In this document: positions 1 through 8,988 of the stretch, in pieces
Position numbering within the stretch: the stretch's first letter is position 1
How the letters are laid out: each line of letters starts with the position of its first letter
From: a virus
Taxonomy: Duplodnaviria > Heunggongvirae > Uroviricota > Caudoviricetes
DNA: 17,878 bases
Virus record (IMG/VR): IMGVR_UViG_2531839195_000006
Reading direction: 5' to 3' (one strand)
Notes under the pieces: generated by a model
Seen by the model: only the letters and a program-made list of their open reading frames with translations
Databases searched by the model: none
Told to the model about the DNA's origin: nothing
Program-made: the position numbers and the translations under genes

Positions 1-68
1 TTTATTCCATAACTGCAGAGCATTTTTCTGATTGTTCCATCTGATTTCGGGGGGTATTCCGGGCAAGG

Positions 69-2993
69 TTGTTCAGTAAGGCATTCCTTCGTAAAATCAG
101 CATGTTTTTTGCACGACGGAAACCGGCAGCCATGAAAATCTGTCTTTATCATACTCTGAATCCTGACACGATCCCGGGTTATAAAAAATTTGCACAGGCT
201 ATTGCCACCGATAACTTTGTTCAGGCTGATGTTCGTAAAATTGACACCAATCTTTACCGCGCCCGGCTCAGTATCCGGGACCGATTACTGTTTTCGCTGT
301 ATCGCTACCACGGTGAAACTATCTGCCTTGTTCTGGAATATATTCGCAATCATGCCTATAACACTTCACGTTTTCTTCGCAGAAACGTGGTGATTGATGA
401 AGGGCGCTTACAACAACAACCAGTGCCGGATCCTGTTGATATCGCGACTGAAGCGCTGACGTATATCAATCCGTCTCATGGGCGTTTCCACCGCCTGGAT
501 AAAATGCTGTCCTTTGATGATGATCAGCAGGCACTGTACGAACACCCGCTACCGCTGGTGATTGTTGGCTCGGCGGGAAGTGGTAAGACGGCGCTGGTAC
601 TGGAAAAAATGAAGCAGGCTGCTGGTGATATACTGTATCTCAGCCTTTCCTCATTTCTGGTGGAAAAAGCGCGTACTCTCTATGACGCTTCAGGGGAAGG
701 GAGTGAGGTACAGAATATTGACTTTCTTTCGCTGACGGAATTTCTGGAAACTCTGCGCATTCCGGAAGGCAGGGAGGTGACTTTCAGTGCGTTCAGCGAC
801 TGGCTGCCCCGCAACAGGGCTATCGCCGCACTGGGGGCTGCCCATACCCTGTATGAGGAGTTCAGGGGCGTGATCGGTGCGGTTGCCTCCGGGAATGGGC
901 CGCTGTCCCGGGAGGCGTATCTGTCACTGGGGATACGGCAGTCGCTCTATGGCATGGAGGACCGCCCGACGGTCTATGTCCTGTTTGAACGTTATATCGC
1001 ATGGCTGAAACAGTCGCATCAGTATGACAGTAATCTGCTCAGTCATCAGTATCTTTCGTTGGCAACTCCCCGTTATGATGTCATTTTTGTTGATGAAGTT
1101 CAGGATATGACGCCTGTTCAACTGCAACTGGTACTGAAAACGCTACGTCATCCCGGTCAGTTTTTACTCTGTGGTGATGCCAATCAGATAGTTCATCCGA
1201 GCTTTTTCTCATGGAGTTCGCTCAAAAGTCTCTTTTTCCGGCAGCAACAGGGAAACGACACAACCGTTAATATCCTGCAGGCGAATTACCGTAACGGGCA
1301 CCACGTCACTGCACTGGCTAACCGGTTGCTGAGACTCAAACAGGTCCGCTTTAGTGCTATTGATCGGGAAAGTCACCATTTTGTCAGAAGCTGCGGTCAG
1401 GCAGAAGGGACCATCCGGTTGCTGGACGATAGGGAAGAGACAAAGCAGGAACTGAATGCCAAAACCTCACTTTCGAATCGTGTAGCGGTCATTGTGATGC
1501 ATCCGGAACAGAAAGCACAGGCGCGATGCTGGTTCAGTACGCCGCTGGTCTTTTCGGTTCAGGAGGTTAAGGGGCTGGAATACGAAACGGTGATCCTTTA
1601 CAATATAGTAAGCGCTGCCCGGCAGGCATTTGATGATATTTGCGAGGGTCTTACACCGGCTGATCTTGAGGGCGAGGCCCGTTATTCCCGTCCGCGGGAC
1701 AGGCAGGATCGTTCAGCGGAAATCTATAAATTTTTTACCAACGCGCTGTATGTTGCGCTCACCCGTGCTAAACACAATGTGTATCTTGTTGAACAGCAGG
1801 TGGAGCATCCTCTGTGGAGTCTGCTTGCGCTCACGCATCAGGAAGAGCCTCTGAATCTGCAGGAAGAGATTTCCAGCCGTGATGAGTGGCAGAAAACCGC
1901 ACATCTGCTTGAAAAACAGGGGAAGCAGGAGCAGGCGGACACCATCCGTAGCCGGATCCTGCAGACATCTGAGATGCCATGGCAGATTATCACCGCAGAG
2001 GATGCACGACAGTGGAAACAGCATATCCTCGCAGGTACAGCCGATAAAACCATACAACTGCAGGCGCTGGAGTACAGTCTGATTTATTCCCTGTTCCCGC
2101 TGTATAATGCACTGTACCGGGAAGATTTTAAGCCCACAAGGCAGCCCAGAACGAAGACTCTGCAGTTACTGGAGCTGAAGTATTTCCGGCCATACTCAAT
2201 GAATAACCCGGTTGCCGTGTTGCGGGATATTGAACGTTATGGTGTTGATCACCGTTCGCCGTTTAATCTTACTCCGCTGATGTCAGCAGCCCGGGCAGGT
2301 AATATTGCACTGGTTCAGTTACTGCTGGAGCGTGGTGCAGATCCCTTGCTGACCGGTAATGACGGGCTGGCGGCTTATCATCAAGTTCTGTCAGCGGCGG
2401 TCAGTACGCCCCGTTATGCGCAACAGAAAAGTGCGCAGTTGTATACCCTGCTGAAACCTGAAAGTCTGTCACTGCAGGTGGAAGGACGCCTCATCAAACT
2501 GGACAACCGGCAGATGGCAATGTTTCTGGTGATCCTGATGCAGGCGCTGTTCCACACGCATCTGGGAAGTGCTCTGTTTTTTTCGGAAGCCTTCAGTGCG
2601 GCACGACTGGCAGAGTGTGTGGTTCATCTTCCTGAAGCGTTGCTGCCGGAACGCCGCAAACGAAGGAGTTATATCAGCAGCCAGCTCTCTCAACATGAAG
2701 TTAACAGCAAAAATCCTTATGGAAAAAAGCTTTTTCTGAGGCTGAACCACGGACAGTATATTCTTAACCCGGGGCTTAAAATAAGGAAGGGTGATGTGTG
2801 GCGCGCGGTTTATGAGTTGCAGTCACCGGAAGATCTGGGGCATGATTTGCAGACTTATCTGCAGGATATGTCACCGGAATTAGTGGATATGCTGGGAGGG
2901 AAGAAGGGTTTTTACGAACGCAGTGAAAAGTCTGTCGGATACTGGGTGGGGGGATCCGTCGTGCCGCTCAAAAAGCGTGAGGTTCCGTGCTGA
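69..2993 (+). CDS. SF1 UvrD-like helicase / P-loop NTPase with C-terminal ankyrin repeats (974 aa as the maximal ORF)
   Basis: Walker A GSAGSGKT at aa 167-174 (nt 567-590), matching UvrD motif I. Motif [11 protein letters not shown] near aa 340. UvrD C-terminal motif [10 protein letters not shown] near aa 565. Ankyrin-type repeats ([41 protein letters not shown]) near aa 735-775. Start is uncertain: the ORF opens after a TGA at 42-44, and the candidates are TTG 69, ATG 102 and ATG 132, none with a strong RBS. Confidence 0.75.
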
Positions 2994-3008
2994 CAGGATG
3001 TAACCGAA

Positions 3009-3337
3009 CTTCATCTGTACGTAAGTACGTGATGTCTCCCGCCCACTTCTGGTTCGGACCACTGGCGTAAAAATCCTGCTCCAGCAGATTTTCTGACACG
3101 GGCAGGCCATGTGCGCGGTAACTGACCGGGCTGAACTTCCGGGAGGCCTTTGCCCTCAGCCCCTGACGGCGCAGGCTTGCCGCCACGGTTTTTACGTTAA
3201 AGTGGTAACCCTGAGCACGCAGTTCATCCGTCAGGCGTGGTGCACCGCAACGCTGTTTTGACCGGGTAAAGAACGCTGTCGCAGTGCTGACGGAACTGCT
3301 GACGAGGGCTTATCCCTGTCCGCCGCTGACACCACGT
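3009..3337 (-). pseudogene. Internal fragment of an IS3-like (IS3 family) transposase orfB N-terminal region, with no IS ends
   Basis: Minus-strand translation gives [19 protein letters not shown] ... [75 protein letters not shown], which matches the IS3 InsF N-terminal region as I remember it. The frame is broken by an internal indel and stop codons, and no terminal inverted repeats are present. Boundaries are approximate. Confidence 0.55.
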
Positions 3338-3526
3338 TCAACAGTTTGTGGACTGTTCGCTCGCTTCCGGAAATCAGGGCTTTCATGGCCTTTGCCTGCA
3401 GGTATGTCGGAGCAGGAGCTTGATGCCCTTCTTTACGGAAGTGCCTCCACAGTACCTGTCGTACTTACTGAAAGCACCGTTATGCCCAAACTCCCGGTGG
3501 TAAAAAACGTCCCCGGCGGCCTTAAT

Positions 3527-3560
3527 GCCAGTCAGTTAAGCAACTGACTGGCTCTTTTTC
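3527..3560 (+). terminator. Candidate rho-independent terminator
   Basis: Perfect 11-bp stem GCCAGTCAGTT / AACTGACTGGC (3527-3537 and 3542-3552) around a 4-nt loop AAGC, followed by TCTTTTTC on the plus strand. Confidence 0.4.
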
Positions 3561-3614
3561 GGGGCTGTGGGGTATTTCCAGGGCCTCTCCTTTACCACTC
3601 TCGGGAAGGCCCTT

Positions 3615-3641
3615 TGAACCGCCCCGGGTTTCCTGGAGAGT
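3615..3641. repeat. IS629-like terminal inverted repeat (orfB-distal end)
   Basis: TGAACCGCCCCGGGTTTCCTGGAGAGT; its partner at 7160-7186 reads TGAACCGCCCCGGGAATCCTGGAGACT on the opposite strand. Confidence 0.8.
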
Positions 3642-3656
3642 GTTTTATCTGTGAAC

Positions 3657-4178
<522 letters not shown>

Positions 4179-4180
4179 CC

Positions 4181-4214
4181 GAACCGGACGTGCACCTTTC
4201 AGCGCATCCGGCTC
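4181..4214 (-). ncRNA. Group II intron domain V (catalytic hairpin)
   Basis: Minus strand GAGCCGGATGCGCTGAAAGGTGCACGTCCGGTTC: 34 nt with the AGC triad, a GAAA loop and the GGTTC closing motif. Confidence 0.85.
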
Positions 4215-4219
4215 TCCAT

Positions 4220-5743
4220 TTAAATGCTGGCGAACGCCATTGCCACTTCTGTAAAGCGCGATGTATACGTGTTTCTGGTCTCCGTCCTCAGATAGGGATT
4301 ACCTTCGGGTAGCCGCCAGCGGAACAGCTTCTTGCCTTGCCCCACCAACCGGTACAGTATTTCGCCGCTGAGCTTGCCGTGATTGGTTTTACCAAATAAA
4401 ACCCACGTTTTGCTCTGACCCGGTTTCGGTGATTTACACCACCACCTCATCAGGGAAGCGATACCTGTACGGTATTTGCGGGCCAGCCAGTGAGCCAGCT
4501 TCCAGAACACGACACGGTCGATATAACTGAAGACTTTGGCCTTAAAATCAACGAACTGATAGAACATGGCCCAGCCTTTCAGTTTTCGGTTGAGTTGTTC
4601 AGCCATATCGACTTTGCTTTCACTGTAGTTGCCTGATAACAGTGCTGTCAGCGATGCGGCGAAGTTTCTGGCTTTCTCCTGCGGGATCGTTGAGACCACT
4701 CGCATCTCGCCATAACGACTGCGTTTGCGAATGATCCTGTGCCCCAGAAAGATAAAGCCGTCATTAACATGGGTGATTTTAGTCTTATCCATGTTCAGCC
4801 TGAGTTTCAGACTGCCTTCGAGCACACCCCGACACTCCTCCCTGATGGCTTCCGCCTGTGCTTTGGTGCCTTTGACGATGAGGACAAAATCATCGGCATA
4901 GCGGCAGTACGCCACCGCGGGTTTCCACTGCCAGTTTTCTCTGACCGCCGTACTTCGGCCCCGTTGGATACTGTTATTCCAGTACCACCGATCTTTTCTG
5001 GCTTTCCCGCTCAGGTAGCGCTCATGCAGGTATTGATCGAACTCATTCAGCATGATGTTCGATAATAGCGGCGATATAACACCGCCCTGTGGCACACCTT
5101 CACTGGCCGCCCGAAAGAGACCGACATCGATATGTCCCGCCTTGATGGTTTTCCACAGCAGAGTCATGAAACGTGCGTCACTGATCCTGCGGCGTACAGC
5201 CTTCATCAGCAGTCGATGATGTACGGTGTCGAAGTAACTGGACAGGTCGCCTTCAATCACCCAGCGTCCCCGGGTTTCACCACAGTCTGTGAGCTGTAAT
5301 TTCACCGTGCGGATCGCGTGGTGGACACTGCGCTCAGGCCGGAAGCCATATGAGAGCGTATGAAAATCACTCTCCCATATCGGCTCCATCGCCATCAGCA
5401 TGGCCCGCTGAACAATACGATCCCGCAACGCGGGGATACCCAGTGGTCGCAGTTTGCCGTTGCTTTTAGGGATGTAAACCCGTCTGGCGGGCAAGGGCTG
5501 GTAGTGGCCTGAGAGTAATTCATCCCTGAGGATTTGCAGCTCAACAGCCAGTCTGGCCTGTAGCATTGTTTTGCTCACGCCATCAGCGCCGGGGGTATGG
5601 GCCCCCTTTGATGAAAGCGTGATCCGCGCCGCTTCAGCCAGCCATTCTGGTTGTGTTATCAGACGCAGCAGCCGTTGAATCCGTAGGGACGGATCGGTGG
5701 CTGCCCATGTGGCAAGCTTGCGTTGCATTTCGCTGATTATCAA
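4220..5743 (-). CDS. Group II intron-encoded reverse transcriptase/maturase (507 aa, no HNH endonuclease domain seen)
   Basis: RT motifs RRVYIPKSNGKLRPLGIPALRDRIVQRAM, SYGFRPERSVHHA and YCRYADDFVLIV, followed by a maturase (X) domain. The C-terminus has no cysteine/histidine HNH signature. Confidence 0.9.
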   Translation of the reverse strand: MIISEMQRKLATWAATDPSLRIQRLLRLITQPEWLAEAARITLSSKGAHTPGADGVSKTMLQARLAVELQILRDELLSGHYQPLPARRVYIPKSNGKLRPLGIPALRDRIVQRAMLMAMEPIWESDFHTLSYGFRPERSVHHAIRTVKLQLTDCGETRGRWVIEGDLSSYFDTVHHRLLMKAVRRRISDARFMTLLWKTIKAGHIDVGLFRAASEGVPQGGVISPLLSNIMLNEFDQYLHERYLSGKARKDRWYWNNSIQRGRSTAVRENWQWKPAVAYCRYADDFVLIVKGTKAQAEAIREECRGVLEGSLKLRLNMDKTKITHVNDGFIFLGHRIIRKRSRYGEMRVVSTIPQEKARNFAASLTALLSGNYSESKVDMAEQLNRKLKGWAMFYQFVDFKAKVFSYIDRVVFWKLAHWLARKYRTGIASLMRWWCKSPKPGQSKTWVLFGKTNHGKLSGEILYRLVGQGKKLFRWRLPEGNPYLRTETRNTYTSRFTEVAMAFASI

Positions 5744-6385
5744 AGGTCTTCACCTCGTTAGGTCAGTTAATTCACGTCGCAAACACATTCAAACTGCTTC
5801 CCTTCGCCATGTAATGGGCTTTCCCCATCGCGGACTACTACGGAAGCTCCGCCAGCCAGCGCGTCATCGGAGCCATGCCCCCTTAACATCCGTCGCTGAC
5901 CTTCCCCGGTTTACCTGCCTGGACTCAGGCATACTGAGGAGGCTGCCCGTCGCACTCTTTATCCTTGCTTGCCGCAAGTTGGCAGAAGTCAGCAACGCAA
6001 GTGTGATAGACGCTGCTGCCCCGGTGTTTCGCATACATGTCAAAACACCTTCGACCGGCAGTGCTTACGTATCACTGCCAGTTCCTCCTGCACGGCCTGT
6101 CAGATCACGTAGGCCGTGGTGACGTTTTCAACCCACAGAGGCGGATTAACGGGTTCATGTTCTTCAGCCTTTCAGTACTTAACCTTGAGGATCATCTCGG
6201 CTTAGTGATCTCGCCTCAATCCCCGTTGTCAGCGGGTTACATCACCCTGCGGGCATGCCGCAGGTCACTGCCGCTCAGGTTCTCCACCGTCACACCCGGT
6301 GGGATTGTTGGGTTTCTCATCGTGAGTTACCGGTTCAATATTCCAGACAGACTCGCGGTTCATTTAAGCATCCATGCCCGCCCCG

Positions 6386-6809
6386 CATGTGCTGACGTAA
6401 GTAAAGTCAGCCACCCACAGCTGGTCAGGTCGTTCTGCCACGAACTGACGGTTTACGCGGTCGCCTGCGGCAACGGCTTTCCGGCTGATGGTCGTACGGA
6501 CCTTTTTACCCCGGAGAACACCGGCAAGTCCCATAACCGCCATGAGACGTGCCACAGTGCATCTGGCCACTCTGATACATTCCCGTAACAACTGACGCCA
6601 GACTTTACACCGTATACCTTGTGATTTTCATCGTATACGCGCTGTATCTCTTTCTTCAGCCAGTCATCGCGCTGCGCACGGGCACTGCGTTTATCCGGAT
6701 GATGTCGCTGTTGCTGACAGTGGTAATACGTTGACGGGGCAATATGCAGTTCGCTGCATAGCGGTCCGCCCCCGTACTGCTCACGCAGCTTATCCAGCAG
6801 TGGCATCAT
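6386..6809 (-). pseudogene. IS629 orfB, 5' portion (exon 1), frameshifted
   Basis: [68 protein letters not shown] continues in another frame as ...LRECIRVARCTVARLMAVMGLAGVLRGKKVRTTISRKAVAAGDRVNRQFVAERPDQLWVADFTYVST. The frame change is near 6598-6612. Confidence 0.75.
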
Positions 6810-6814
6810 TTTTT
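6806..6814 (-). promoter_or_regulatory. Programmed -1 ribosomal frameshift window of IS629 (A6 run overlapping orfA stop and orfB ATG)
   Basis: Minus strand reads TGG AAA AAA TGA TGC; the orfA stop TGA (6808-6806) overlaps the orfB ATG (6809-6807). This is the usual IS3-family OrfAB fusion arrangement. Confidence 0.6.
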
Positions 6815-7132
6815 CCAGAGGCGGTCGAACTCCGCCTTCGCAAAATAAGCGGAAGCCTGGCGAAGGATATCGTTACTGCGGCGCAGTTCACGATTTTCAC
6901 GCTCCAGCTCTTTCAGACGCTGACGTTCAGCGGTGGTGAGCCCTCCATCACCGCCCCCGGTATCCCGCTCATGCTGGCGACCCCAGACACGCAGAGTCTC
7001 CGGCGTACAGCCAATCTTTGGGGCAATGGAACAAATTGTCGCCCATTGTGAGTCATATTCGCCCTGACTTTCCAGAACCATACGGACTGCCCGTTGACGG
7101 ACTTCGGGGGAAAAACGAGTATTTTTAGTCAT
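6806..7132 (-). CDS. IS629 OrfA (IS3-family transposase N-terminal DNA-binding protein, 108 aa)
   Basis: [50 protein letters not shown]...[39 protein letters not shown] at 7132 is preceded by GAGAAAGAGG. Ends ...TGG AAA AAA TGA. Confidence 0.85.
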
Positions 7133-7159
7133 CCTGTTTACCTCTTTCTCAGGAAGTTT

Positions 7160-7186
7160 AGTCTCCAGGATTCCCGGGGCGGTTCA
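7160..7186. repeat. IS629-like terminal inverted repeat (orfA-proximal end)
   Basis: Reverse complement is TGAACCGCCCCGGGAATCCTGGAGACT, about 50 bp upstream of the orfA ATG at 7132. Confidence 0.8.
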
Positions 7187-7257
7187 CGTTGGGTTTTTCT
7201 GCTCATTATTAGCTCCTTCTGATGCCATTCTATTTCAGGAAGGAGTGTCCGTTAAAC

Positions 7258-8988
7258 TCAGGCTACCTCAACTCTCTTTTCAATAGGGTCAAGGTTTTTC
7301 ATCCCGCCAAGATCTTCTGCCACCTGTTTGAGCATTGACCTTGTTGATGGCGCATCAATTTTTGCACCTGCAGGCATCGCCTTTTCAACATTGCGATAAA
7401 GCTGGTCGCTTCGTTTCATCAGCGCAGACATTCTTCCATTGACCGTATCAATAAACTTGTCGCTCATACCAAGAGCATCTTTTGCACCGGAAACGCGATC
7501 AATTATCTCACCCGCGCCCTGTGCTAGCTGCCTGATTGCTTCATTTTCCTGCACCTGTAGAGCAGAACCCGCACGGGACTTGATTGCTTGCTCAACTGCC
7601 TTGTATTGCTCGTTCCCGGAAAAGTGTGAAGGGAGTAATGAATCAACATTAAGCCTTTCAGCAGACTCCAGAACTTCAGCCTGAGGATTGATATCTAGTT
7701 CATCAAGCGATGAAGCGAGATTTGGCCTTTTTTGTGCTGCTACTGTGCGAACGACTTCCTCTGGGTTCTTCGTCGCAGGCGTCATTGGTACACCTTGTGC
7801 TACTCTTGCCTCTGCGGCATGAACCGCAGGATTTGTTGCTGCAGCGGCATCACCGGAGAATGGTGATGTTTCTGTTGGCGCAGTGGTCGCTCTCTGTGCA
7901 GATGTTTTATTGCCACTAATTATATTTGATGCACCACGAACACCACGGGTAACGCCATTTATCAGGCCATGCGTAGCAATGCTAAGTCCGGCATTAATAG
8001 CGGCATTTTCGGCAAAATCACCCCGTTGATTCGCCGCGTCAGCGAGAGAACCAATGACCATGTTTCCAGCTACACCTGCTCCAGGAACAAGATAACCGCC
8101 TATTGACTCTCCAGCTTGCGCGTAGGGGTCTGTCGGTCTGTCTACTGGACGATAAACATCATCCAATACTTTTGGCCCCCCAAGCCCCTGACTGATTGCA
8201 TTAATCAGACTTGCGCCACCCTGCAATACGTCAAATGGTATGTTTACCAGACCACGACCAGCCTGTTCTGCAATTTGCCCTGCACTTTGACCACCAGTGA
8301 GCCAATCGCCAGCTTGTTGCATCAATGATGGTTCTTCCCGTGTTGGTGCATTATTGGCCTGATTAACTGTTTGTTGCTGAACAGGTTTCGGTGCGACAGA
8401 ACTTACGGGTTGAGGTGGCTGCTGACTGGCTGCCTGCTGCTCAATCTGAGCAAATGGATTATTTGGGTCTGACTGCACACCTGATGCCGATACTTGTTCG
8501 GATGACTGTACTTCCAGTTGTGCAAACGGGTTGTTAGGGTCTTGCTGAGGATGTACCTTTGCAGAGGTGGCGCGCTGTTCGACTGTTGAGTCTGTCACCG
8601 GGTCACCAGCCCATTGAGCAAAGCGATCATCAACGTAACCGCGGCCTTCAGGTCCTGGCGTATATTCACCACGCTTTGCCTTCATAACGTTGCCGGGACC
8701 GTCGTGATAAGCCTGAAGAGAGTCACGCCAGTTACCAAACTGCTGGTACATCTTTGCCAGATAGCGCGCGCCAGCGTCAGCCTGATATTCGGGGTTTTGC
8801 ATTTGCTCATCGGTATAACCCATATCACGCCATGTCCCAGGCATGACCTGAGTCAATCCTACAGCCCCGGCGGAGCTTACTGCGGCAGGGTTGTAAGAAG
8901 ACTCCTTGGCACCCAGTGCAGTCATCAACCCTTCTGGCACACCGTAACGTGCGCCAGCCTGCTCTAACAAATCACGGTAATTAGCCAT
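7258..8988 (-). CDS. Prophage ejection/internal virion protein at the gp16 position, with N-terminal lytic transglycosylase (SLT) domain (576 aa)
   Basis: N-terminus [28 protein letters not shown]...AGARYL is an SLT signature. It is followed by a Q/P/A-rich linker with a tandem DPNNPFAQ(L/I)E repeat. The ATG directly follows the upstream stop. Confidence 0.75.

What the first reader, a model, noticed from the sequence alone, without database searches (positions are those of the whole stretch)
7187..7257. Prophage late module is truncated by IS629 about 70 bp after the last ejection-protein gene
In P22/Sf6-like genomes the ejection genes are followed by superinfection-exclusion and immunity genes and the tailspike. 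Here the IS629 end lies 70 bp beyond the gp16-position stop, and the far side holds IS debris and the helicase. No 3-bp target duplication flanks IS629 (CTT versus CGT), which suggests an IS-mediated deletion rather than a simple insertion.
Basis: inference. Interest (0 to 1): 0.45.

Follow-up and report, generated by a model that had tools for sequence, protein, structure and literature searches.

The report
IS600-cut prophage gene beside IS629
The 70-base "spacer" is the stump of a second insertion sequence (IS600) that cut the last phage ejection gene a third short of its end; this is ordinary decay of a Shigella flexneri prophage, seen here in a draft contig that also joins plasmid and chromosome DNA across IS629.

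Summary
The coordinates hold. IS629 ends at 7186, the ORF stops at 7258-7260, and the flanks are CTT and CGT. The reading is only partly right.

- **The gene is not complete.** It matches residues 1-573 of a 911-residue protein that is intact in phages Sf101 and APC_JM3.2 and in an E. coli prophage.
- **The spacer is not phage DNA.** Bases 7187-7270 are the first 84 bp of IS600. It supplies the last three codons (EVA) and the stop. IS600 broke the phage, and IS629 then cut IS600.
- **The arrangement is widespread.** This gp16 stump, IS600 stump and IS629 join occurs across S. flexneri. The exact 576-aa protein is indexed in 1949 blocks of the assembly collection. In every complete chromosome read, psiF-phoA lies beyond IS629, with no tailspike or attachment site.
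- **The left flank is plasmid.** Bases 1-3614 are pINV virulence-plasmid DNA. On pINV the same IS629 copy has a perfect CTT/CTT duplication. The chromosomal copy has GAT/CGT. So CTT/CGT is the left flank of one IS629 copy joined to the right flank of another.
- **The join may not be real.** The window is a whole 17.9-kb contig of the 2012 draft of strain K-404. It has homopolymer errors and a garbled intron boundary. I rate an assembly chimera at about 0.6 and a real pINV-chromosome cointegrate at about 0.3.

The finding is ordinary and of low interest.

The parts
7187..7270 (-). Terminal 84 bp of IS600: the left inverted repeat, the untranslated leader and the first 7 codons of orfA (MSRKTQR). 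The rest of the 1264-bp element is absent from the window. The finding's interval 7187-7257 lies wholly inside this stump.
   Evidence: It is 100% identical to intact IS600 copies in Stx2a phages. It is 98.8% identical to a copy annotated 'IS3-like element IS600 family transposase' in an EIEC pINV. Full copies are 1264 bp with a GTA duplication. No other IS600 sequence is in the window.
7258..8988 (-). Truncated gp16-position ejection gene with an N-terminal SLT lytic transglycosylase domain. It has 573 native codons, then Glu-Val-Ala and a TGA stop read from the IS600 inverted repeat.
   Evidence: Pfam SLT hit, 9e-25. 566/573 residues identical to residues 1-573 of the 911-aa Sf101_0013. The tail reads ...EKRV-EVA*. 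911-aa ORFs run through the breakpoint in Sf101, APC_JM3.2 and E. coli F1005.
7271..17878 (-). Chromosomal P22/Sf101-like (Lederbergvirus) prophage remnant. Gene order: portal (fragments), scaffold, coat, gp4, gp10, needle, gp14-like, gp7, gp20, truncated gp16-position gene.
   Evidence: Pfam hits. 98.3% identity to Sf101 over 7271-11479. 99.7-99.8% identity to S. flexneri chromosomes at about 238-260 kb.
6396..7186 (-). IS629 arm on the left-inverted-repeat side. It holds orfA (6806-7132), the frameshift pseudoknot and the start of orfB.
   Evidence: 98.7% identical to depositor-annotated IS629. Ends are identical. Rfam ALIL pseudoknot at 6735-6851, 116 bits. Alleles at 6579, 6902, 6906 and 7022 match the chromosomal psiF-side copy and none of five pWR100 copies.
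4130..6395 (-). Group II intron of the kind that homes into IS629 (E.c.I4-type), with ltrA at 4220-5728. It sits at the same site in IS629 orfB as in other strains. Its 5' boundary at 6384-6395 is aberrant.
   Evidence: Pfam RVT_1 and GIIM. Rfam Intron_gpII at 4130-4216. Same insertion site as in pINV and chromosomal copies of other strains. E.c.I4 targets IS629 (PMC3522654).
3615..4129 (-). IS629 arm on the right-inverted-repeat side, holding the 3' part of orfB.
   Evidence: Ends verified against annotated IS629. Alleles at 4072 and 4117 are those of pINV copies, not of the chromosomal psiF-side copy.
1..3614 (+). Segment of the S. flexneri virulence plasmid pINV. It holds a UvrD-like helicase with ankyrin repeats (69-2993, C-terminus frameshifted by a 1-bp loss at 2947), an IS3-family transposase fragment (about 3011-3335) and an IS66 TnpA fragment (about 3333-3524). 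It ends with CTT at 3612-3614.
   Evidence: 99.8% identical and collinear with pWR100, pSFxv_1 and 61 pINV records, including the junction with IS629. On pINV this IS629 copy has CTT on both sides.

Best explanation
The window shows nested insertion-sequence decay of a prophage, viewed through a draft contig.

1. **Shown.** A P22/Sf101-like prophage of the S. flexneri chromosome lost its distal end. IS600 sits inside the gp16-position ejection gene at codon 573 of 911.
2. **Shown.** Only the first 84 bp of that IS600 remain, because an IS629 abuts it at 7186/7187. The IS600 inverted repeat supplies three codons and a stop. That makes the stump look like a complete 576-codon gene followed by a 71-bp spacer.
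3. **Structure shown, mechanism inferred.** In S. flexneri chromosomes this IS629 has psiF-phoA on its other side and unmatched flanks (GAT/CGT). So an old IS629-associated deletion, or recombination between two IS629 copies, removed several things: the rest of IS600, the gene's last 338 codons, the arc-like gene, the tailspike, the O-antigen modification genes and the attachment end. The arrangement is fixed in the lineage.
4. **Shown.** In this contig the other side of IS629 is not psiF. It is the pINV plasmid flank of a different IS629 copy, which on the plasmid has an intact CTT/CTT duplication. CTT/CGT therefore comes from an exchange between two IS629 copies.
5. **Inferred, about 0.6.** That exchange happened in the assembler, not in the cell. 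The composite of IS629 plus intron is 3.57 kb and is probably present in both replicons of strain K-404. The two unique flanks were joined through it.

The stump has no function. The prophage cannot make a tailspike or a full ejection protein.
For: **Truncation**
- Homology to all intact relatives stops at 7271.
- The ORF covers 573 of 911 residues at 99% identity.
- 911-aa ORFs are present in three independent relatives.

**IS600 stump**
- 84 bp are identical to full 1264-bp copies annotated IS600.

**IS629**
- Its ends and sequence are verified.

**Fixed in the lineage**
- The exact 576-aa protein is indexed in 1949 blocks of the assembly collection.
- In the six chromosome-length contigs shown (18 similar places not shown), only chromosomal genes follow IS629. 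psiF-phoA was called in three of them. In the other three the gene calls were fragmentary, with ddlA, sbmA or phoA fragments.
- In E. coli the junction lies 8 nt past the psiF stop, with adrA-proC beyond it.

**Two-replicon origin**
- Bases 1-3614 plus the IS629 junction are native to 61 pINV records.
- pINV flanks are CTT|IS629|CTT. Chromosomal flanks are GAT|IS629|CGT.

**Artefact reading**
- The window is a complete 17,878-bp contig (AKMZ01000035.1) of the S. flexneri K-404 draft.
- It carries window-specific 1-bp homopolymer indels that break the helicase, gp20, coat and portal genes.
- The intron's 5' boundary is replaced by sequence of intron-less IS629. This variant is in none of 72,556 plasmids, as expected if reads from other IS629 copies entered the consensus.
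- Other strains carry the intron in the pINV copy or in the chromosomal copy. A strain with both would present a 3.57-kb two-copy repeat.
- None of the 25 contigs read for the truncated protein shows the pINV join.
Against: - No reads or mate pairs could be examined, so the artefact part is not proven.
- The contig is continuous. Its two IS629 arms carry clean copy-specific alleles, pINV-like at 4072/4117 and chromosome-like at 6579, 6902, 6906 and 7022. A real single crossover would give the same pattern.
- pINV does integrate into the chromosome by recombination between IS copies (PMC5629016).
- Alleles in the left arm vary between strains, so they are weak markers.
- Whether the ancestral chromosomal event was a transposase-mediated adjacent deletion, an IS629 x IS629 deletion or an inversion cannot be told from these data.
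Confidence: 0.6

Rival explanations
1. The anatomy is the same, but the join is real. In strain K-404 (or the sequenced culture) pINV, or part of it, is fused to the chromosome. The fusion arose by homologous recombination between the helicase-side IS629 copy on the plasmid and the chromosomal IS629 copy at the prophage stump. The window is one of the two cointegrate junctions.
For: - One uninterrupted contig has a pINV flank on one side and a chromosomal flank on the other.
- The two copies lie in the same orientation, as a single crossover needs.
- The arms are mosaic, pINV-like on the left and chromosome-like on the right.
- Reversible pINV integration through plasmid and chromosomal IS copies has been shown experimentally for IS1294 (PMC5629016).
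Against: - Integration is rare without selection, and it was not seen in any of the 25 contigs read for this protein.
- The contig comes from an error-prone draft.
- It has a consensus anomaly exactly at the intron/IS629 boundary.
- The reciprocal junction could not be looked for.
Confidence: 0.3
2. IS629 inserted next to an intact last ejection gene. Through a transposase-mediated adjacent deletion it removed the distal phage genes and brought the helicase region alongside.
For: There is no target duplication around IS629 in the window. The tailspike and the attachment end are absent.
Against: - The gene is cut at codon 573 of 911 by IS600, not by IS629.
- The left flank is pINV DNA whose IS629 junction is native to the plasmid, with an intact CTT/CTT duplication.
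- The right junction pre-exists in S. flexneri chromosomes with psiF on the other side.
- All S. flexneri IS629 copies examined carry a 4-bp deletion in orfB, and this copy also holds an intron, so recent transposase activity from it is unlikely.
Confidence: 0.03

Closest known systems
The P22-like prophage remnant of the S. flexneri chromosome (for example strain 2002017, CP001383, about 238-251 kb), compared with phage Sf101
   Same: The window matches from 3614 to 17878 at 99.7-99.8% identity. The breakpoint, the 84-bp IS600 stump and the IS629 junction are identical. One strain (CP058589) also has the intron in this IS629.
   Different: In those chromosomes psiF-phoA lies beyond IS629. Here pINV DNA does. 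K-404 also carries private 1-bp indels and an aberrant intron boundary.
The helicase-adjacent IS629 copy of S. flexneri pINV (pWR100, pSFxv_1, pAUSMDU00010535_01)
   Same: Window 1-4129 is collinear at 99.8% identity with the same CTT junction. Three pINV records also carry the intron in this copy.
   Different: On pINV the right side is CTT followed by plasmid sequence leading to ospG. Here it is CGT, the IS600 stump and phage DNA.
[quoted passage not shown] 2017, PMC5629016)
   Same: A shared insertion sequence has a plasmid flank on one side and a chromosomal flank on the other.
   Different: The published cases use IS1294 and were confirmed by PacBio sequencing and plasmid gels. Here the element is IS629, the evidence is a single draft contig, and the reciprocal junction is unseen.
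Intact gp16-position SLT proteins of Lederbergvirus phages (Sf101_0013, APC_JM3.2 gene 29; 911 aa)
   Same: The N-terminal 573 residues are 99% identical. The upstream genes (gp20, gp7, gp14-like) are the same.
   Different: The C-terminal 338 residues are missing. So are all downstream genes: the arc-like gene, the tailspike, oac/gtr and integrase or the attachment end.

Membership tests
IS629 (IS3 family) | Characteristic terminal inverted repeats and about 1310 bp of IS629 sequence | tested here: met
   Both ends are identical to a depositor-annotated IS629. The arms are 98.7% identical. The arms total 1306 bp without the intron.
IS629 (IS3 family) | orfA/orfB with a programmed -1 frameshift signal | tested here: met
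   orfA has the HTH_Tnp_1 domain. The Rfam ALIL pseudoknot is at 6735-6851, 116 bits. orfB itself is broken by the intron and by a 4-bp deletion.
IS629 (IS3 family) | 3-4 bp direct target duplication, as for a simple insertion | tested here: not met
   The window has CTT and CGT. The pINV copy has CTT/CTT. The chromosomal copy has GAT/CGT.
IS600 (IS3 family) | Sequence identity to IS600, including its terminal inverted repeat | tested here: met
   84/84 bp match full copies. Copies annotated as the IS600 family are 1264 bp with a 3-bp duplication.
IS600 (IS3 family) | Complete element with both ends and a transposase | tested here: not met
   Only bases 1-84 are present. There is no further IS600 sequence in the window.
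P22-like (Lederbergvirus) prophage | Late gene order portal-scaffold-coat-gp4-gp10-needle-gp14-gp7-gp20-gp16 | tested here: met
   Pfam families and collinearity with Sf101.
P22-like (Lederbergvirus) prophage | Complete element with tailspike, integrase and attachment sites | tested here: not met
   Nothing phage-like lies left of 7271 in the window. In complete S. flexneri chromosomes only chromosomal genes (psiF-phoA where called) follow IS629. The upstream end of the prophage lies outside the window and was not examined.
pINV-chromosome cointegrate formed by IS x IS recombination | Shared IS with a plasmid flank on one side, a chromosomal flank on the other, and hybrid target-site halves | tested here: met
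pINV-chromosome cointegrate formed by IS x IS recombination | Reciprocal junction present, no free plasmid, and read-level support across the IS | not testable with these tools
   Only this one K-404 contig could be retrieved. No reads were available.
Group II intron (E.c.I4-type, homing into IS3-family transposase genes) | RT/maturase ORF and catalytic domain V/VI | tested here: met
   RVT_1 and GIIM. Rfam RF00029, 64.9 bits.
Group II intron (E.c.I4-type, homing into IS3-family transposase genes) | Canonical 5' end (GUGYG) at the exon junction | tested here: not met
   Reference copies begin GTGTGCCCGGAGTTCA. In the window these 16 nt are replaced by 12 nt resembling intron-less IS629.

The most novel reading that the evidence does not exclude
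The contig is correct. A clinical S. flexneri isolate from Bangladesh (K-404) carries its virulence plasmid, or a large part of it, integrated in the chromosome. Integration occurred by recombination between IS629 copies at the prophage stump next to psiF. This would be a natural instance, at a new site and through a different IS, of the reversible pINV integration so far shown in the laboratory with IS1294.
Probability: 0.3. Interest if true: 0.35.

Novelty: already known. Interest (0 to 1): 0.12.

Why it matters
It matters little for biology. IS-driven decay of prophages and IS-rich junctions are the norm in Shigella. This particular stump is present in a very large number of sequenced S. 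flexneri genomes.

There are three practical points.
- **A truncated gene can look complete.** An inverted repeat supplied an in-frame stop. Gene length has to be checked against intact relatives before a gene is called 'the last intact gene'.
- **The truncated protein seems to mislead annotation.** An intact 911-codon gene in E. coli F1005 is annotated as 'incomplete' at exactly 573 codons.
- **A missing target duplication in a draft contig has several possible causes.** It can be the signature of two IS copies joined together, in the cell or in the assembler, rather than of a deletion.

If the join were real, it would document natural integration of the virulence plasmid. In laboratory strains such integration lowers type III secretion gene expression.

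Tried and rejected
1. I searched the species-representative genomes for a window-specific 41-mer around the 1-bp deletion at 2947 and found no match. The second scan used the IS600/gp16 junction 40-mer. It found two chromosomes (E. coli ECMA0423 and S. flexneri SFBU1023). Both carry the intron-less IS629 next to the stump, and neither aligns to the window's pINV segment.
2. An exact look-up of the 974-aa helicase ORF found nothing on record, because the C-terminus is frameshifted in this draft.
The K-404 scaffold protein is private to this contig. So the upstream prophage end and the original attachment site were not examined.
4. I tried to use SNPs in the IS629 arms to decide whether the join is real or an artefact. 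The right arm is clearly the chromosomal copy. The left-arm alleles vary between strains and among seven pWR100 copies, so the test is not decisive.
5. I considered that the aberrant intron 5' end is a genuine 5'-truncated retrohoming product with a duplicated target. I think this less likely than a consensus artefact. The substituted bases are an imperfect copy of intron-less IS629, joined at a CAGGGC microhomology, and they are found nowhere else.
6. Rfam found nothing in 7187-7257.

Full report
**What is at the coordinates.** The phage genes lie on the minus strand. A 576-codon ORF (7258-8988) with an N-terminal SLT lytic transglycosylase domain follows homologues of P22 gp20, gp7, a DUF2824 (gp14-position) protein, an Sf6-type needle and gp10. 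Immediately to its left, 7186 is the last base of an IS3-family element. Both ends of that element (3615 and 7186) are base-for-base those of a depositor-annotated IS629, and its arms are 98.7% identical to it. The element holds orfA, the ALIL frameshift pseudoknot and a group II intron with an RT/maturase gene. The flanking triplets are CTT (3612-3614) and CGT (7187-7189).

**The gene is not complete and the gap is not phage DNA.**
- Searches of 5,426 complete E. coli genomes and 50,697 phage records gave many P22-like matches. All of them begin at window 7271, about four codons inside the ORF's 3' end.
- In phage Sf101 the homologous gene (Sf101_0013) has 911 codons. The window ORF is 566/573 identical to its residues 1-573 and then stops.
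- Phage APC_JM3.2 and a prophage of E. coli F1005 also have 911-codon ORFs that read straight through the breakpoint.
- Bases 7187-7270 are 100% identical to the outer 84 bp of an IS3-family element that is intact in Stx2a phages. The same element is annotated as 'IS600 family' in an EIEC invasion plasmid, where it is 1264 bp long with a GTA duplication.
- The stump holds the left inverted repeat and the first seven codons of IS600 orfA. Read on the phage gene's frame, the inverted repeat TGAGGTAGCCTGA supplies Glu-Val-Ala and a stop.
- The apparently intact gene with a 71-base spacer is therefore a 573-codon stump fused to an IS600 end. No other IS600 sequence is in the window. IS600 broke the phage, and IS629 later cut IS600 at its base 84.

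**What was lost.**
- In Sf101 the gene is followed by a small ORF, the tailspike, the O-acetyltransferase oacB and the integrase.
- In E. coli F1005 it is followed by an arc-family gene, the tailspike, gtrA-gtrB-gtr and then the chromosomal gene dacD.
- None of this is in the window.

**The arrangement is a lineage feature of S. flexneri.**
- The exact 576-residue protein, EVA tail included, is indexed in 1949 blocks of the assembly collection. Sixty-two of those blocks have contigs above 1 Mb.
- The six chromosome-length contigs shown include strain 2002017, CP001383. All carry gp16 stump, 84-bp IS600 and IS629, followed only by chromosomal genes. psiF, phoA, iraP and ddlA were called in three of them. 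In the other three the gene calls were fragmentary.
- One of them (CP058589) also has the intron in this IS629.
- The chromosomal copy has GAT on the psiF side and CGT on the IS600 side.
- In E. coli the psiF-side junction lies 8 nt after the psiF stop, with adrA and proC beyond it.
- The chromosomal copy therefore also joins two unrelated sequences without a duplication. An old IS629-associated deletion, or recombination between two IS629 copies, must have removed the rest of IS600 and the distal phage genes. Which of these it was cannot be told here.
- All S. flexneri IS629 copies I examined are 1306 bp, with a 4-bp deletion in orfB relative to the O157 reference. That argues for homologous recombination rather than fresh transposase activity in recent events.

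**The left side of the window is another replicon.**
- Bases 1-3575 match the invasion plasmids of EIEC.
- Bases 1-4129, including the junction with IS629, match 61 S. flexneri pINV records at 99.6-99.8%.
- The gene order on the plasmid is lpxM (msbB2)-virK-capU-deacetylase-helicase-IS3 fragment-IS66 TnpA fragment-IS629-...-ospG.
- On pWR100 and pSFxv_1 this IS629 copy has CTT on both sides, which is a normal 3-bp duplication.
- Three pINV records carry the intron in this very copy.
- The window's CTT/CGT is therefore the left flank of the plasmid copy and the right flank of the chromosomal copy, joined through IS629.
They are not the far edge of a deletion.

**Is the join real or made by the assembler?**
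- An exact look-up of the window's private LtrA variant identified the source. The window is the whole of contig AKMZ01000035.1 (17,878 bp) of GCA_000268025.1, which is S. flexneri K-404 from Bangladesh.
- The contig has window-specific single-base losses and gains in homopolymers: 2947, 3501, 10324, 14467, 15685 and 17244. These break the helicase C-terminus, gp20, coat and portal reading frames. That is the error profile of an older short-read draft.
- At the intron's 5' boundary the canonical first 16 nt (GTGTGCCCGGAGTTCA) are replaced. In their place are 12 nt that are an imperfect copy of intron-less IS629 across the homing site, joined at a CAGGGC microhomology. A further private base lies 11 nt away. 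No plasmid among 72,556 has this variant.
- I read this as reads from intron-less IS629 copies leaking into the consensus. That means the region was assembled as a collapsed repeat.
- Other strains carry the intron either in the plasmid copy or in the chromosomal copy. A strain with both would present a 3.57-kb two-copy repeat, longer than the reads. Walking in from the two unique flanks and merging inside the intron would give exactly this contig.
- The allele pattern fits that reading. It is pINV-like at 4072/4117 next to the intron. It is chromosome-like at 6579, 6902, 6906 and 7022, and unlike all five pWR100 right arms.
- A genuine single crossover would give the same pattern, however. 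pINV is known to integrate reversibly through IS copies shared with the chromosome, as shown for IS1294 (PMC5629016).
- Such integration is rare without selection. None of the 25 contigs read for this protein shows it.
- Overall I put the assembly chimera at about 0.6 and a real cointegrate at about 0.3.

**Comparison with what is known, and verdict.**
- Every component is a known element. These are IS629, IS600, an E.c.I4-type intron that homes into IS629 (PMC3522654), a Lederbergvirus prophage remnant and pINV.
- The nested arrangement itself is already present in public S. flexneri genomes.
But the break is inside the gene, IS600 made it, and the CTT/CGT mismatch has a different cause.
- Novelty is 'already known' and interest is low.
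- The only reading with some interest is a natural IS629-mediated integration of the virulence plasmid in K-404. Testing that needs reads or PCR.

Noticed in passing
window 6384-6406 (minus strand: 5' end of the group II intron): The intron lacks its canonical first 16 nt (GTGTGCCCGGAGTTCA). In their place are 12 nt resembling intron-less IS629 across the homing site, plus a private A-to-G change at 6406. The variant is absent from 72,556 plasmids. It is probably a consensus artefact. If it is real, the intron is 5'-truncated, cannot splice, and carries a duplicated target.
   Followed up: partly
window 2947, 3501, 10324, 14467, 15685, 17244: Window-specific 1-bp homopolymer indels relative to all reference copies. 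They frameshift the helicase C-terminus and shorten or split gp20, coat and portal. They are most likely sequencing errors of the 2012 draft, so these pseudogenes should not be trusted.
   Followed up: partly
window about 6606 (IS629 orfB); also every S. flexneri pINV and chromosomal IS629 copy examined: All S. flexneri IS629 copies examined are 1306 bp. They share a 4-bp deletion (ACGC on the window's plus strand) in orfB relative to the 1310-bp O157 reference. This should disrupt the OrfAB transposase, yet the element is present in many copies.
   Followed up: partly
L018 7000-8718 (E. coli F1005, NZ_OY754353.1): RefSeq annotates the gp16-position gene as 'incomplete; missing C-terminus' at exactly 573 codons, although an uninterrupted 911-codon ORF (L018 5983-8718) is present. 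The abundant truncated Shigella protein probably served as the annotation evidence.
   Followed up: partly
window 5574 and 5586 (ltrA): Two substitutions 12 nt apart (Val to Ala, Asn to Ser) make an LtrA variant found on no other contig in the collection. They could be real private changes or low-quality consensus, possibly where two half-assemblies met.
   Followed up: no
window 11480-12106 (needle gene 11479-12327): This stretch has no nucleotide match to Sf101, although both sides match at 98% and 89.5%. The window's needle carries an Sf6-type knob domain, whereas the Sf101 gene at this position is shorter. This is a mosaic module swap.
   Followed up: no
window 69-2993: The pINV gene encodes a protein of about 970 aa that combines a UvrD-like superfamily 1 helicase core with ankyrin repeats. 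It is conserved next to the lpxM(msbB2)-virK-capU-deacetylase gene cluster in S. flexneri and EIEC plasmids. Annotation gives it only a generic helicase-domain name.
   Followed up: no
window 3575/3576 versus L003 6617: The EIEC plasmid pCFSAN029787_01 has a complete IS600 (GTA duplication) exactly where its homology to the S. flexneri pINV segment ends. The S. flexneri plasmid continues for 39 bp and then has IS629. The same small IS66-derived region has been hit independently by different insertion sequences.
   Followed up: partly
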